From a virus, in the IMG/VR virus record IMGVR_UViG_3300042273_000055: 49,502 nucleotides of DNA. One strand, 5' to 3'. Below, piece after piece: positions 2,637 through 44,822 of the stretch (its first letter is position 1; every line of letters begins with the position of its first letter). The notes beneath the pieces were generated by a model. That model was given only the letters and a program-made list of their open reading frames with translations, made no database searches and was not told the DNA's origin. The position numbers were made by a program, and so were the translations under genes.

Positions 2637-3106
2637 TCATCGGAATCGACCCTGGCTGCACTGGCGCCATCGTAGTGATGACCGAGAGCCGCAACTACGT
2701 GGCTCACCTCAACATGCCGACAATCAAGGTAGGCACGAAAAGCCGAGTGAACGGCGCCGCCGTCGCTGCCTTCCTGCGCGAGACGGTCGGGGAGTTCACC
2801 GCTCATGCCTATCTGGAGCAGGTCGGCGCCATGCCTGGCCAGGGCGTTTCCTCGATGTTCACCTTTGGCCATGCCGCTGGCGTGGTCGAGGGCATCCTGC
2901 AAGGAGCGTGCATCCCGTACACATTGGTCACCCCGCAAGCATGGAAGAAGAGAGCGGGCCTCATTGGGGCCGACAAGGATGCCGCACGCTCCCGCGCAAT
3001 CCAGCTCTACCCGGACCTCCGCATTCTCGACCTGAAAGGGAAGGGGCAAGCGGTGGCCGACGCCATTTTGATCGCCCGATTTGGGGATAAAGGGGAGGCA
3101 GCCTAA
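2633..3106 (+). CDS. RuvC-like Holliday-junction resolvase
   Basis: The N-terminal MIIGIDPGCTGAIVV is the RuvC/RNase H-fold signature. A C-terminal acidic residue sits in the AVADAILIA context. Confidence 0.8.
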   Translation: MIIGIDPGCTGAIVVMTESRNYVAHLNMPTIKVGTKSRVNGAAVAAFLRETVGEFTAHAYLEQVGAMPGQGVSSMFTFGHAAGVVEGILQGACIPYTLVTPQAWKKRAGLIGADKDAARSRAIQLYPDLRILDLKGKGQAVADAILIARFGDKGEAA

Positions 3107-42440: not shown

Positions 42441-42631
42441 GGCTGCTCTCCTTGCGCGCCCAAAATGGCGCTGCGAATGAATGCCCACTCCTCATCTGTG
42501 CAGTGCTGCGCGAGGGGCTTGCTTGCTGCCAGCGTGAGGGCTTCGAGGAGGGTGTCGTAATGCTTGGCGAGGACGACCGTTCGGTAGACGGCGCCGACCT
42601 GAACGACGAAGTGGCGTGCGTGATCGCTCAT
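42437..42631 (-). CDS. Hypothetical protein (64 aa)
   Basis: The ATG at 42631 overlaps the upstream TGA. Confidence 0.5.
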   Translation of the reverse strand: MSDHARHFVVQVGAVYRTVVLAKHYDTLLEALTLAASKPLAQHCTDEEWAFIRSAILGAQGEQP

Positions 42632-42987
42632 GCTGCCTCCTGCTTGATCTGCTCTGCGGTGCTGCGCAACTGCGCCGCATGGTGCTCGATGAATTCCGCC
42701 TGCAGCTTGTCGATGCTCCAGACGATCTCGTTCAGGGCCTCGTCTAGCCATTCGTTCGAGTAGCCGATGCGGCTGCGCATGGCGTCCCACTTGCCGGAGC
42801 AGATGGACAGGATCAGCGCCTTGGCCAGCGCGGCCGGCACCTCAAGCTTGTCCTCGCAAAACTCGGCGTAGGCCTGCATGGTTGGTTCGTGGAGGCTGTC
42901 GAGCGCGGCCAGCACCTGCTCTGCCTCGGAAACGCTGTCATCCGGGCACGGCTGTTCGCGGCGCCCTGTGGGTCCGTAGTGCTTCAT
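42628..42987 (-). CDS. Hypothetical protein (119 aa)
   Basis: GC3-rich ORF. It is the first gene after the non-coding spacer. Confidence 0.6.
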   Translation of the reverse strand: MKHYGPTGRREQPCPDDSVSEAEQVLAALDSLHEPTMQAYAEFCEDKLEVPAALAKALILSICSGKWDAMRSRIGYSNEWLDEALNEIVWSIDKLQAEFIEHHAAQLRSTAEQIKQEAA

Positions 42988-43452
42988 GGTGGATACCTCG
43001 GTTGCCCGGATGGGCGGGGGAAGGGGTGATGCAGTGGCCGGGCATCACTCCGGCGCGCCTTAACAATGCGGTGGCTCCGCAAGAGGGCTCCCGACCTTTC
43101 GGCCCGCAAGGAACTCCCTCTGACGACTTTCTTCCCCGGTGCGCCTGGCTCCGGCATTTCTTCTGTTTGCGTGTCTATGGCTGCCACGCCGCACTGCATC
43201 GGGGGTCGGCCTGGACGCGGAGCTTTCACCGCGATCTGCCAATTTGCCGGCCGGGCTGTCGAGCAAGCCGACCTCCGATGCAGGCTCGTTACGTGAGCCA
43301 TTCGGCCTGCTACCGATACCCGGCAGGCGCTAGGCAGGAGTTGTCTTCCGTGACGCCGGATCGGCTCCAGCTGAGGGTCATGGCGCTACCAGCACCGCGC
43401 GCCGTACGGTTATCGCAGACCTGTGGGTCTGGCCTGGCTGGTTCAGGCGGGG
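42988..43452 (-). ncRNA. Candidate structured non-coding RNA or cis-element (465 nt) inside the early-left operon
   Basis: No ORF has gene-like third-position GC. There is a 17-bp long-range inverted repeat (43194-43210 / 43267-43283, 1 mismatch), several local hairpins, and GGAGCC x4 on the - strand. Confidence 0.3.
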
Positions 43453-43644
43453 TTATTTGGTGCGGGCCTGTGCTGATGTCATGGCATCTCGTGATGCCTC
43501 CCAGCCGGCGCAAAAGTTGTTATAGCTAACCAACTCATCAGCGGCTTTGAACGCCCGCCTCCAGTGAGCATCTGTTTCGCCTTCGAGCAGCCTGCTGGCT
43601 ACTCTGTAGCGGTAATGCTTAAAGGCTTTCTCCATCTCTTCCAT
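43453..43644 (-). CDS. Hypothetical protein (63 aa)
   Basis: ATG at 43644 preceded by AAGGAGAG. Confidence 0.55.
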   Translation of the reverse strand: MEEMEKAFKHYRYRVASRLLEGETDAHWRRAFKAADELVSYNNFCAGWEASRDAMTSAQARTK

Positions 43645-43726
43645 CACTTCTCTCCTTTCTCTCTCCACCACTCCCACCCCCACAGCGCAGCTAGTACGCT
43701 GATGAGGAGGAGGGTTTGGGGTAGGG

Positions 43727-44026
43727 TTAGCATGGGGCGCCGCGGGCCTTGGCGATGGCCTCGGCAAGCCCGCGCATGTGCGGGCAAGTGAGCCCGTCAG
43801 CGGCGATTCCGTAGCGCTGCATCACGTCAGCTAGCAGCGCCTCGGCGTGCGTGTAGAGTTCCTTAGCGGCAGCCAGCAGACGAGCGTCATTCATGTCGTG
43901 CTCGCCTGTAACGCTTCGCTCAATGACGGCCACGCCTGGCTCAATGAAGATGTAAAACTCCGACTTCTGCCCGGTCGTTTCAAGTTCGCTGACGTACCAG
44001 TCTCCTGGCGTAAATCCTTCGCTCAT
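43727..44026 (-). CDS. Hypothetical protein (99 aa)
   Basis: GC3-rich ORF with AGGAGGAT upstream. Confidence 0.6.
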   Translation of the reverse strand: MSEGFTPGDWYVSELETTGQKSEFYIFIEPGVAVIERSVTGEHDMNDARLLAAAKELYTHAEALLADVMQRYGIAADGLTCPHMRGLAEAIAKARGAPC

Positions 44027-44277: not shown

Positions 44278-44666
44278 TGCTCACTCCTTCCAGTGGATTC
44301 CTCCTGATGCGCCCCGCTTGAGGCGCACCGAGGAATCGTCTGTCTTGCTGGCCTCCGTTACTTGCCACGGTGGGCTGGGCTGAACTGTCAAGGAATCCTT
44401 GGTAGTTCGATCTCGTTGCGCGTCTGCCGGAGTCATCTCTCTGCCCGCTGCCGCTACTGGCGTCGCATCGGGTGGCTGCGCAACTTCGCGTGGCTGCATG
44501 TGGAGCCACGGCCAGTTCCAGAGCTGGCATGGGGCGGGGAATTTGTAGAGCGCGCTGTTTGCCGAAGCAGACCCCGCCGCGCTGATCTCAATTTGTTAAA
44601 GAGTTTCCGGGGATTCACCCGAGGCCCCTTTCGAGGCCCTGAAGCGTGTCTCGCTTCGATGGGTGA

Positions 44667-44695
44667 ACTATGAACCGTGCGTTCACATTGGTCAA
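44667..44695 (-). promoter_or_regulatory. PL-type early-left promoter: TTGACC, 17 nt, CATAGT, with an A/T-rich UP-like tract upstream
   Basis: On the - strand: GAAAAATATGTACTTTTGGTTC-TTGACC-AATGTGAACGCACGGTT-CATAGT. Confidence 0.6.
44671..44685. promoter_or_regulatory. OL operator, a 15-bp palindrome TGAACCGTGCGTTCA inside the PL spacer
   Basis: A perfect TGAAC-N5-GTTCA. The same architecture appears at 45653-45667 and 45677-45691. Confidence 0.55.
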
Positions 44696-44765: not shown

Positions 44766-44822
44766 GGAATCAGGAATCAGGAATCAGGAATCAGGAATCA
44801 GGAATCAGGAATCAGGAATCAG
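44766..44822. repeat. Tandem heptamer repeat (GGAATCA) x8
   Basis: Counted directly: 8 perfect copies at 44766-44821, plus a trailing G. Confidence 0.95.

What the first reader, a model, noticed from the sequence alone, without database searches (positions are those of the whole stretch)
42988..43452. A 465-nt ORF-free, highly structured spacer in an otherwise gap-free early operon: candidate large ncRNA or cis-acting element
Neighbouring genes overlap or are separated by only a few bases, yet this stretch has no credible CDS. The longest ORFs (105 aa on the - strand, 215 aa on the + strand) have third-position GC near the bulk GC, about two-thirds by my count against above 80% in flanking genes. 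They also use many rare Arg, Leu and Gly codons and encode Arg/Pro-rich nonsense-like sequence.

The region contains a 17-bp long-range inverted repeat with one mismatch: CTGCATCGGGGGTCGGC at 43194-43210 and GCCGACCTCCGATGCAG at 43267-43283. It encloses nested hairpins, for example CGCGG-N8-CCGCG. Other structures (coordinates are + strand; the GTGATGC, AGAGGG and CAGACC stems are written as read on the - strand) are:
- a 7-bp stem GTGATGC/GCATCAC (43025-43047);
- AGAGGG/CCCTCT (43081-43120) around a CCGA-N4-TCGG hairpin;
- GCCTGC/GCAGGC (43305-43328);
- CAGACC-CACA-GGTCTG (43417-43432).

The hexamer GGAGCC occurs four times on the - strand. By a rough estimate, a chance 16/17 complement within 465 nt has an expectation well below 0.01. 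I do not recognise it as any RNA family I know.
Basis: partly seen in the sequence, partly recalled or inferred. Interest (0 to 1): 0.7.

Follow-up and report, generated by a model that had tools for sequence, protein, structure and literature searches.

The report
Phage RNA clamp carrying swappable payload
The gene-free gap in this phage's early operon is a string of conserved non-coding modules, and its 112-base core is a previously undescribed RNA hairpin scaffold that carries a small RNA insert which differs completely between related phages and is tRNA-like in some of them.

Summary
The gap is real and non-coding. Its ORFs show no codon-position GC periodicity, and relatives carry frame-breaking indels.

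It is not one 465-nt structured RNA. It is five modules on the minus (operon) strand:
- A: 43464-43378
- i: 43377-43300
- core cassette: 43303-43192
- c3: 43191-43056
- C: 43055-42907

Only the core folds better than shuffled sequence (z about -4). Only the core has covariation support.

The core has three parts:
- a small hairpin with a CGUAA loop (P2);
- a 50-nt payload enclosed by P3, with its own hairpin.

P2 and P3 recur in more than 100 phage or prophage contigs. In 36 distinct scaffolds, 13 of 25 pairs change on both sides and 94% of cells stay paired. The payload falls into about 27 mostly unrelated types. Two types pass Rfam's tRNA threshold but lack an anticodon loop.

No Rfam family matches the window. 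Relatives carry the Rfam motif Proteo-phage-1 just upstream.

In relatives the same slot is empty, or holds an unrelated protein gene, or holds this cassette. It therefore behaves as an accessory RNA gene.

My best mechanistic guess is inferred, not shown: host RNase III cuts P3, releasing the payload and punctuating the mRNA.

The parts
43378..43464 (-). Module A. Conserved block that starts at the stop codon of the upstream gene.
   Evidence: Present in 53 of 71 cassette-bearing loci, although only 4 of 71 share the upstream gene. Pairs are almost invariant, so there is no covariation. z = -1.1. On the plus strand it reads as a terminator-like hairpin with a T-run (43432-43448).
43300..43377 (-). 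Module i. CGAAT is the 5' edge of the cassette.
   Evidence: Present in 25 of 71 loci. About half of the relatives have, in the corresponding position, Rfam Proteo-phage-1 plus a different stem-loop. Invariant pairs. z = +0.3.
43283..43299 (-). P2. Hairpin GGCUC-ACGUAAC-GAGCC, a 5-6-bp stem with a conserved CGUAA loop, directly abutting P3.
   Evidence: Five different stems carry the same CGUAA loop: GGCUC/GAGCC, CGCUGG/CCAGCG, CGCUCC/GGAGCG, CGCUGC/GCAGCG and GGCCCG/CGGGCC. More distant contexts have other hairpins at the same place.
43264..43282 (-). P3, 5' strand: UGCAUCGG-A-GGUCGGCUUG.
Evidence: In P3, 97% of cells are paired and 10 of 19 pairs change on both sides across 36 distinct scaffolds. 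None of 500 shuffles reached this, and slid controls gave 28-41% paired.
43214..43263 (-). Payload of 50 nt. It has an invariant AGCCCGGCCGGCAA segment and a terminal hairpin, GAUCGCGG-UGAAAGCU-CCGCGUC (43236-43214), that abuts the 3' strand of P3.
   Evidence: It is one of about 27 payload types. Among 11 variants of this type, four pairs of the inner hairpin show compensatory changes. This payload was found only inside P3.
43195..43213 (-). P3, 3' strand: CAGGCCGACC-C-CCGAUGCA. It is followed by G and UG (43194-43192).
   Evidence: model R1 scores 73 bits, E = 4e-16, the only strong match in the window.
43056..43191 (-). Module c3.
   Evidence: Present in only 11 of 71 loci. At least four other 3' modules, or none, replace it. 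One-nucleotide indels among relatives break the 105-aa minus-strand ORF. None of 36 predicted pairs shows a compensatory change. z = +1.0.
42907..43055 (-). Module C. A conserved 'gene-start' block holding the GUGAUGC/GCAUCAC stem, the ribosome-binding site, the ATG at 42987 and the first 25 or so codons of the downstream ORF. A 10-bp stem, CAUCCGGGCA (43012-43003) / UGCCCGGAUG (42948-42939), encloses the RBS and start codon.
   Evidence: Present in 67 of 71 loci, even where the rest of the downstream protein differs. The 10-bp stem is perfect in the window and virtually invariant in 47 distinct sequences, with 1-2 exceptions at its outermost pairs. Short copies of C precede inserted genes in relatives.

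Best explanation
The window is a lambdoid temperate siphovirus of the Pseudomonas/Stutzerimonas group. The gap sits about 1.4 kb downstream of the pL-like promoter, in the leftward early operon. It consists of conserved non-coding 'punctuation' modules (A, i, c3, C) that surround one accessory RNA gene.

That gene is the cassette at 43303-43192 (minus strand). A small hairpin (P2) stacks directly on a helix of about 20 bp (P3). P3 clamps a payload RNA. The scaffold is constant across phages, and the payload is exchanged among many unrelated types. Some relatives carry tRNA-shaped payloads that lack an anticodon loop. This window carries a 50-nt two-hairpin type.

Proposed mechanism (inferred):
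1. The cassette is co-transcribed with the early operon.
2. P3, about two turns of dsRNA, is cut by host RNase III.
3. This releases the payload as a small stem-capped RNA that acts in trans as a decoy or regulator. tRNA mimicry in relatives hints at the tRNA or translation machinery, or tRNA-targeting defences, as the target.
4. The cut leaves P2 as a protective 3' hairpin on the upstream mRNA and creates a new 5' end for the downstream mRNA.

Shown: non-coding status, conservation, helices P2 and P3 and the payload hairpin by covariation, payload exchange, accessory-slot behaviour.

Inferred: transcription from pL, RNase III cleavage, any trans function.
For: Non-coding:
- Flat GC1/2/3.
- Frame-breaking indels in relatives.
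- No annotation in PS-1.

Structure:
- Core z = -4.1, with 0 of 200 shuffles as stable.
- 0 of 1000 shuffles give the inverted repeat.
- Across 36 distinct scaffolds, 94% of cells are paired and 13 of 25 pairs are compensatory. No shuffle of 500 matches this, and slid controls give 28-41%.
- Further compensatory variants: CUGCAUCUGA/UCAGAUGCAG and UGUAUCGG/CCGAUACA.
- The payload hairpin has 4 compensatory pairs.

Strand:
- tRNA-model hits (45.6 and 42.6 bits) and Proteo-phage-1 hits all lie on the operon strand.
- G.U occurs at 5 P3 positions in this sense, against one A.C position.

Payload exchange:
- About 27 types sit in flanks that are mostly 85-100% identical.
- The same cI (99.6% identical) occurs with a different payload.

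Payload is functional rather than junk:
- Compensatory changes occur within payload types (L003 against L190).
- Payloads of five types carry T-arm-like hairpins (UUCGAAU, UUCAAGU, UUCGACU, UUCGAGU, UUCAAAU) that lie directly, or through an acceptor-like stem, against the 3' strand of P3.

Accessory slot:
- 34 of 59 loci found through the downstream protein carry the cassette.
- The rest have A+i+C only, or an unrelated ORF of 85-184 aa.

Punctuation role:
- In all contexts a hairpin of some kind abuts the 5' side of P3.
- In L132, L163 and L164 the cassette lies in the pL leader, 24 nt before the first gene.
- This layout parallels the lambda N leader and the T7 early RNase III sites (my own knowledge).
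- No promoter is predicted inside the gap. A pL-like promoter lies upstream.
Against: - There are no expression, end-mapping or cleavage data. RNase III sites cannot be predicted reliably from sequence.
- The outer 9 bp of P3 and the CGUAA loop are conserved in sequence as well as in pairing. RNase III alone does not explain this. It suggests a sequence-specific partner, or recognition at the DNA level.
- A recurrent A.C mismatch or bulge at the tenth pair would be G.U on the opposite strand. P3 alone therefore does not fix the strand.
- This window's payload is not tRNA-like.
- No complementary target was found in the phage.
- The modules outside the core have no structural support.
Confidence: 0.4

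Rival explanations
1. Purely cis-acting element. P2-P3 is a processing, stability or translation-control hairpin of the polycistronic early mRNA. Its apical region is a permissive site where any sequence, including tRNA gene debris, is tolerated. The payload has no function of its own.
For: - The cassette always lies upstream of a gene start and is tightly linked to block C, which has an RBS-enclosing stem.
- In three contigs it lies in the pL leader, 24 nt before the first gene.
- No target complementarity was found.
- Payload types are mostly unrelated and vary in length from 40 to about 195 nt.
Against: - Compensatory changes maintain hairpins inside payloads.
- tRNA-like folds with intact D and T arms but excised anticodon loops recur in two independent payload families.
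- T-arm-like hairpins are placed, directly or through an acceptor-like stem, against the 3' strand of P3.
- Many relatives manage with no cassette at all in the same slot. This makes an essential cis role unlikely.
Confidence: 0.25
2. DNA-level element. P3 arms are the terminal inverted repeats of a small non-autonomous mobile or recombining cassette, MITE-like or a site-specific recombination cassette. The RNA hairpin is a by-product, as with Correia or ERIC elements.
For: - 20-bp terminal inverted repeats flank 40-195 bp of variable DNA.
- The outermost 9 bp are the most conserved.
- The same P3-plus-payload unit (93% identical) occurs in two contexts, the main slot in L006 and the pL leader in L132. 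Homology ends exactly at the repeat ends.
- Payloads assort independently of flanks.
- Correia elements show that such repeats are cut by RNase III when transcribed (PMC2649163).
Against: - No target-site duplication is visible at any junction.
- There is one copy per contig, or two in L132. Only 30 viral and 17 metagenome contigs carry the commonest arm.
- A hairpin always precedes it, and the orientation relative to the operon is always the same.
- No payload was found in inverted orientation.
- All arm mismatches are G.U or a single-site A.C.
- Structure is maintained inside payloads.
- No transposase or extra recombinase lies next to it.
Confidence: 0.15
3. Immunity-type or antisense regulatory RNA, like P1/P7 C4 or P4 CI. 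The constant scaffold presents variable loops that pair with targets in the same phage and define specificity. Alternatively, a plus-strand sRNA is transcribed antisense to the operon.
For: - The constant scaffold with variable, structured loops, the tRNA-likeness and the location in the early or immunity-proximal operon resemble C4/CI RNAs, which are RNase P substrates (my own knowledge; C4 is listed as an RNase P substrate in PMC5499578).
- A plus-strand terminator-like hairpin lies at 43432-43448.
- The plus strand folds equally well.
Against: - Rfam, which by my recollection includes a C4 family, gives no match.
- The best complementarity within the window is 13 of 14 nt, at chance level.
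- Cognate payload/locus pairs score no better than non-cognate pairs: 19.9 against 19.8 bits.
- Payload type does not follow repressor type.
- tRNA-like payloads and Proteo-phage-1 read on the operon strand.
Confidence: 0.07
4. Decayed pseudogene, or a meaningless spacer with chance repeats.
For: Some relatives carry a protein ORF in the same slot. Most modules fold no better than shuffled sequence.
Against: - The slot ORFs share no similarity with the spacer.
- The modules are conserved at 85-100% identity across dozens of contigs with different neighbouring genes.
- The core has strong covariation and z of about -4.
Confidence: 0.03

Closest known systems
RNase III processing hairpins of phage early mRNAs (T7 early region; lambda N leader) and the processing stalks that flank rRNAs
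   Same: - A dsRNA stem of about 20 bp inside a polycistronic early transcript, between genes or in the pL leader just before the first gene.
- An adjoining hairpin could protect the upstream 3' end.
- Flanking complementary strands enclose an RNA to be released, as in 16S/23S precursors.
(Comparison from my own knowledge of those systems.)
   Different: - Cleavage is untested here.
- P3 is conserved in sequence as well as in pairing.
- It encloses a hypervariable, exchangeable payload.
- It is an optional accessory, absent from many close relatives.
Rfam RF03044 Proteo-phage-1 RNA (Weinberg et al. 2017, PMC5737381; function unknown)
   Same: Same phage group, same intergenic region, same strand. 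In about half of the relatives it lies 45 nt upstream of P2 (60-73 bits).
   Different: - The window has no match.
- The Rfam model stops before P2-P3.
- Its core loop also occurs upstream of structural genes in unrelated contigs without P2-P3.
It is therefore a neighbouring module, not the same RNA.
P1/P7 C4 and P4 CI immunity RNAs (C4 antisense RNA family)
   Same: Phage-encoded, tRNA-like, cut out of a longer early transcript. A constant frame carries variable loops.
   Different: - No Rfam match.
- No co-varying target and no link to repressor type.
- The frame here is a 20-bp clamp rather than a 7-bp acceptor stem with a free CCA.
Correia (CREE/nemis) and ERIC-type miniature inverted-repeat elements
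   Same: Terminal inverted repeats of 20-26 bp around 50-150 bp. When transcribed they form hairpins that RNase III can cut or bind, which changes expression of adjacent genes (PMC2649163).
   Different: - Those are high-copy chromosomal elements with target duplications and a conserved core.
- This one is single-copy, phage-borne, always next to a hairpin, has no visible duplication, and has unrelated interiors.
tRNA mimics attached to a long stem (bacterial Y RNA YrlA); tRNAs embedded in or next to large phage RNAs (GOLLD, ROOL)
   Same: tRNA-shaped modules with D and T arms that cannot decode, joined to a long helix. They are associated with phages or prophages (GOLLD and ROOL context in PMC5737381).
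   Different: - YrlA joins its stem through the anticodon side and needs Rsr/Ro. Here the junction is on the acceptor side, and no Ro-like gene was seen among the ORFs scanned.
- The Rfam YrlA score is only 14.6 bits.
- The window's own payload is not tRNA-like.

Membership tests
Any Rfam 15 family (4227 models) | Covariance-model match at or near the family's gathering score | tested here: not met
   Window 42500-44000, both strands, E up to 10. The only hit is a 13-bit chance match to a human lncRNA exon.
Proteo-phage-1 (RF03044) | Two hairpins, with the conserved GAUAAGCCGGnnAGUGC loop and an AAAACACCGGCAGCC tail | tested here: not met
   Absent from the window. Present at 60-73 bits in relatives, immediately 5' of the cassette.
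tRNA | Cloverleaf with an anticodon arm, detected by ARAGORN or Rfam RF00005 | tested here: not met
   - Window: no tRNA by ARAGORN or Rfam.
- Relatives L034 and L190 reach 45.6 and 42.6 bits (threshold 29). The anticodon arm is reduced to a 2-3-bp stem with a 4-7-nt loop.
- ARAGORN, run on L034 but not on L190, called no tRNA there.
C4 antisense RNA (P1/P7 C4, P4 CI) | Rfam C4 model match; loops complementary to targets in the same phage; specificity linked to immunity type | tested here: not met
   - No Rfam match.
- Complementarity is at chance level.
- Payload type is independent of cI type.
- Caveat: only partial contigs were available for most relatives.
Retron ncRNA (msr-msd) | Adjacent reverse transcriptase gene; a1/a2 repeats flanking msr and msd | tested here: not met
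   No RT domain was found in the ten early-operon proteins or the ten large structural and late ORFs scanned. The flanking genes are small hypothetical proteins. Not every ORF in the window was scanned.
RNase III processing site | About two helical turns of dsRNA within a transcript | tested here: met
   P3 has 19-20 bp with one central mismatch or bulge and is maintained by covariation.
RNase III processing site | Cleavage by RNase III in vivo or in vitro | not testable with these tools
   No transcript or biochemical data are available.
MITE / Correia-like element | Terminal inverted repeats | tested here: met
   20-bp arms whose outer 9 bp are the most conserved.
MITE / Correia-like element | Target-site duplication and many dispersed copies | tested here: not met
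   - No duplication is visible at the junctions.
- One or two copies per contig; 30 viral and 17 metagenome contigs.
- Host chromosomes could not be surveyed beyond one genome per species (2 hits).
Invertible DNA switch (inverton) | Both orientations of the enclosed segment occur; a recombinase is nearby | tested here: not met
   All shared payload segments are co-oriented. 50 bp between the arms in the window is very short for inversion (my own judgement). No invertase is adjacent.
N-type nut site (boxA + boxB) | boxA followed within about 10 nt by a small pentaloop hairpin, close to the promoter | tested here: not met
   P2 is a pentaloop hairpin, but no boxA precedes it. A boxA-like CUCUUUAACAA lies 1.3 kb upstream in the pL leader (44603-44593).

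The most novel reading that the evidence does not exclude
P2-P3 is the constant handle of a new class of phage 'RNA cassette' system. A conserved, sequence-specific clamp is recognised by a host or phage protein. The clamp displays, and after processing releases, rapidly exchanged payload RNAs. These include anticodon-less tRNA mimics that serve as decoys against tRNA-targeting or translation-targeting bacterial defences. The system would be an RNA counterpart of anti-defence gene islands, with payloads exchanged between phages at the clamp arms.
Probability: 0.15. Interest if true: 0.85.

Novelty: new variant of a known kind. Interest (0 to 1): 0.62.

Why it matters
Phage genomes hold many unannotated gaps. 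This one shows that an apparent spacer can be an accessory RNA gene with the population behaviour of an arms-race locus. The scaffold is constant, while about 27 mutually unrelated payloads sit in otherwise near-identical phages, independent of immunity type.

Two payload families are tRNA look-alikes whose anticodon loop has been removed. That points to mimicry rather than decoding.

If the payloads are released and act in trans, this would add a modular RNA-based layer to phage accessory and anti-defence repertoires. It would also explain what accompanies the orphan Rfam motif Proteo-phage-1.

It provides a compact, testable system: a 112-nt element with natural swap variants in an inducible prophage. 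Even on the conservative cis-only reading, it documents a conserved processing or punctuation signal for early operons of Pseudomonas/Stutzerimonas lambdoid phages.

Tried and rejected
- **Rfam on the window and on 31 related loci.** Nothing matched P2-P3. The only hits were Proteo-phage-1 upstream and tRNA for two payloads.
- **ARAGORN.** No tRNA in the window or in the payloads of the 60 loci scanned.
- **Whole-gap folding.** Not significant.
- **Covariation in modules A, i, c3 and C.** The sequences are too conserved, so the result is uninformative.
- **Strand assignment from wobble pairs in P3.** Inconclusive by energy: -1196 against -1151 kcal/mol summed, with 30 against 27 G.U pairs.
- **Antisense-target search.** Payload against the whole window and against cognate versus non-cognate loci showed no enrichment.
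- **Link between payload type and cI repressor type.** None.
- **Inversion test.** No payload in opposite orientation.
- **Payload origin.** The window's payload core occurs outside P3 only as chance 17-mers in coding DNA.
- **MITE test.** No target duplications and low copy number.
- **Promoter scan of the gap.** None found.
- **Literature.** 'Proteo-phage-1' is absent from the searchable full texts, and the supplement of PMC5737381 is not held.
- **Genome collection scan.** The exact 25-mer gave only Stutzerimonas marianensis and one MAG.
- **A second Pfam batch** failed on a coordinate error and was not repeated.
Full report
**Context**

The window is a lambdoid temperate siphovirus.
- The minus strand carries integrase, a NinI-like phosphatase, a helicase-methylase, YqaJ exonuclease, ERF recombinase and a CI-type repressor.
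- The plus strand carries NinB, portal, major capsid, tape measure and a GpJ-like tip protein.
- Its only relative in the phage collection is Pseudomonas phage PS-1.
- The exact core sequence occurs in Stutzerimonas marianensis among the species-representative genomes.
- A pL-like promoter (44695-44667, minus) lies just after the repressor gene.
- The gap under study sits about 1.4 kb further down the same leftward operon, between a 72-aa ORF and a 119-aa ORF.

**Checking the observation**

What holds:
- The gap is ORF-free in any meaningful sense. All ORFs inside it have GC1, GC2 and GC3 of about 0.65. Neighbouring genes have GC2 of 0.31-0.47.
- PS-1 leaves the same 440 nt unannotated.
- Relatives carry 1-nt indels that break the 105-aa minus-strand ORF.
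No comparable repeat arose in 1000 dinucleotide shuffles.
- Every other listed stem exists.

What does not hold:
- The claim that the whole gap is highly structured fails. The z-score is -1.8 on the minus strand and -0.1 on the plus strand.
- Split into modules, only the 112-nt core 43192-43303 stands out (z = -4.1, 0 of 200 shuffles). The other modules score between -1.6 and +1.0.

**Anatomy from comparison**

PS-1 shares only three blocks with the window's gap. One shared block is GGCUCACGUAACGAGCCUGCAUCGG on the minus strand. This 25-mer occurs in 71 IMG/VR contigs. More loci came from the downstream protein, from other patterns and from metagenomes.

Aligning these loci shows that the gap is a mosaic of five modules:

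| Module | Coordinates (minus strand) | Loci with it (of 71) |
|---|---|---|
| A | 43464-43378 | 53 |
| i | 43377-43300 | 25 |
| Core cassette | 43303-43192 | 71 (by construction) |
| c3 | 43191-43056 | 11 |
| C | 43055-42907 | 67 |

- The upstream gene is the same in only 4 of 71 loci. Block C, including the first 20 or so codons of the downstream ORF, is nearly always there.
- In about half of the relatives, Rfam's Proteo-phage-1 motif plus a different stem-loop precede the core in place of module i. The window has no Rfam match at all.

**The core cassette**

P2 (43299-43283) is a 5-6-bp hairpin with a CGUAA loop. Five different stems carry the same loop.

P3 follows with no spacer. It has 8 bp, then a recurrent A.C mismatch or one-base bulge, then 10-11 bp.

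I replaced the payload by GAAA and aligned the 36 distinct scaffolds. Pair counting gave the following:
- 94% of cells form standard pairs, and 97% within P3.
- 13 of 25 pairs change on both sides.
- No shuffle of 500 reaches any of the five measures.
- Sliding the partners drops pairing to 28-41%.

Even the 'constant' outer part covaries in rare variants: CUGCAUCUGA/UCAGAUGCAG and UGUAUCGG/CCGAUACA. A covariance model built from this alignment finds exactly one strong copy in the window (73 bits).

**The payload**

Between the P3 strands lie 40 to about 195 nt, falling into about 27 types. Only a few types share any sequence, and where they do it is always in the same orientation.
- The window's type (50 nt) is shared by about 25 of the loci held. 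Among its 11 variants, four pairs of the terminal hairpin (43236-43214) show compensatory changes. The segment AGCCCGGCCGGCAA is nearly invariant.
- Two other payload families pass Rfam's tRNA threshold (45.6 and 42.6 bits). They have normal acceptor, D and T arms, but the anticodon arm is cut down to a stub. ARAGORN, run on one of the two (L034), called no tRNA there.
- L003 and L190, two variants of one such family, differ by compensatory changes in the acceptor and T stems.
- Three further types place a T-arm-like hairpin (GGUUCGAAUCC-like) directly against the 3' strand of P3, so P3 takes the place of an acceptor stem.

These hits and all Proteo-phage-1 hits lie on the operon strand. Together with G.U at five P3 positions in that sense, this makes the minus strand the likely functional strand. 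P3 energy alone cannot decide the strand.

**Population behaviour**

- Payload type is independent of repressor type. L025 has a 99.6% identical cI and 93-97% identical flanks but a different payload.
- Among 59 loci retrieved through the downstream protein, and so not selected for the cassette, 34 carry it.
- The others have A+i joined directly to C (a gap of about 185 nt), or an ORF of 85-184 aa in the slot. Those ORFs have no similarity to the window's spacer. The gap is therefore not a decayed copy of those genes. The cassette occupies an accessory slot.
- The cassette also occurs elsewhere. In L132, L163 and L164 it lies in the pL leader, after a boxA-like sequence and 24 nt before a LuxR-type HTH gene. 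More distant contigs have other 5' hairpins (UUCG loop, GC-rich stems) abutting P3.
- L132 holds two cassettes. Its leader copy carries the same payload (93% identical) as L006 has in the main slot, and homology ends at the P3 termini.

**Mechanism**

The helices, the non-coding status, the payload exchange and the accessory-slot behaviour are shown. The rest is inference.
- No promoter is predicted in the gap, so transcription from pL is the simplest assumption.
- A conserved dsRNA of about two turns, always preceded by a hairpin and always just upstream of a gene, resembles the RNase III sites of the T7 early region and the lambda N leader. It also resembles the processing stalks around rRNAs (my own knowledge of those systems).
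- Cleavage in P3 would free the payload with a short stem. It would leave P2 as a 3' protective hairpin on the upstream mRNA and give the downstream mRNA a new 5' end.
- Structure is maintained inside payloads, and anticodon-less tRNA shapes recur. This argues that the payload is itself functional, plausibly as a mimic or decoy.
- For this window's payload I have no target. Complementarity within the phage is at chance level.

**Rivals**

1. A cis-only processing or translation element with a permissive apical loop explains the linkage to gene starts. It does not explain the conserved payload structures or the fact that the cassette is dispensable.
2. A DNA-level cassette (MITE-like, as in Correia elements, whose repeats RNase III cuts; PMC2649163) is suggested by the sequence-conserved termini and the L132/L006 case. 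Against it: I see no target duplications, low copy number, constant orientation, and a hairpin always on the 5' side.
3. An immunity-type antisense RNA like P1 C4 or P4 CI fits the tRNA-likeness. It fails the target and immunity-linkage tests.
4. A pseudogene or chance spacer is contradicted.

**Novelty and verdict**

No Rfam family covers P2-P3. The adjacent Proteo-phage-1 motif has no assigned function that I could find: the paper's main text does not discuss it and its supplement is not held. I found no paper describing the cassette, though the literature search was limited.

I class it as a new variant of a known kind: a phage-encoded structured ncRNA or processing hairpin. The unusual feature is a constant clamp with exchangeable payloads that are partly tRNA-like.

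Interest is 0.62. This is a well-supported new RNA element with intriguing population genetics, but its function is unknown and this window's own payload has no recognisable features.

Noticed in passing
window 44278-44695 (minus strand): A pL-like promoter (TTGACC-17-CATAGT, 44695-44667) is followed by an ORF-free leader of about 380 nt. The leader contains a boxA-like CUCUUUAACAA (44603-44593) about 60 nt after the predicted start. L132 has the same spacing (CGCUCUUUAAGAA). This suggests N-type or rrn-type antitermination in this phage group.
   Followed up: partly
window 44766-44822: A perfect tandem array of eight copies of the heptamer GGAATCA (minus strand: UGAUUCC) lies between the cI stop or terminator-like hairpin (44756-44736) and the pL promoter. 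Its function is unknown.
   Followed up: partly
window 43012-43003 with 42948-42939 (minus strand): A 10-bp stem, CAUCCGGGCA/UGCCCGGAUG, encloses the RBS, the ATG and the first 13 codons of the 119-aa ORF. Both arms are virtually invariant in 47 distinct relatives, although the enclosed N-terminal coding sequence and the rest of the protein vary. This is a candidate translational control structure or recombination linker.
   Followed up: partly
L075, L081, L085, L088, L089, L110, L126 and others (upstream of position 3001): In relatives, short copies of block C (CCCUUCCCCCGCCCAUCCGGGCAACCGAGGUAUCCACC-AUG) precede each gene inserted in the slot. Modules A, i and C therefore act as reusable boundaries around exchangeable accessory genes.
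   Followed up: partly
L134, L139, L141, L142, L144-L146, L148, L156: The core loop of Proteo-phage-1 (GAUAAGCCGGGCAGUGCC) also sits 30-40 nt upstream of a structural-looking gene (MATTVLSGTSGALYYKPAG...) in unrelated phage contigs that lack P2-P3. The Rfam motif may be a more general 5'-UTR or protein-binding hairpin.
   Followed up: no
L132 6222-6427 and 7605-7760: One contig carries two P2-P3 cassettes with different payloads. One lies in the pL leader, directly before a LuxR/GerE-type HTH gene that is the first gene of the operon. The other lies in the main slot 1.2 kb downstream.
   Followed up: partly
window 43432-43448 (plus strand): A terminator-like hairpin with a T-run on the strand opposite to the operon lies inside module A. 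It could stop antisense transcription coming out of the gap.
   Followed up: no
window 42631-42437 (minus strand): A probable 64-aa gene (MSDHARHFVV...) has its own GGAGG site, and its ATG overlaps the stop of the 119-aa gene (ATGA). The mechanical ORF list shows it only as part of a longer 117-aa GTG ORF.
   Followed up: no
L067/L191 payload: One payload type contains the hairpin GCCGGGGAUAAGCGCCGGC. Its loop resembles the GGAUAAGCCGG loop of Proteo-phage-1.
   Followed up: no
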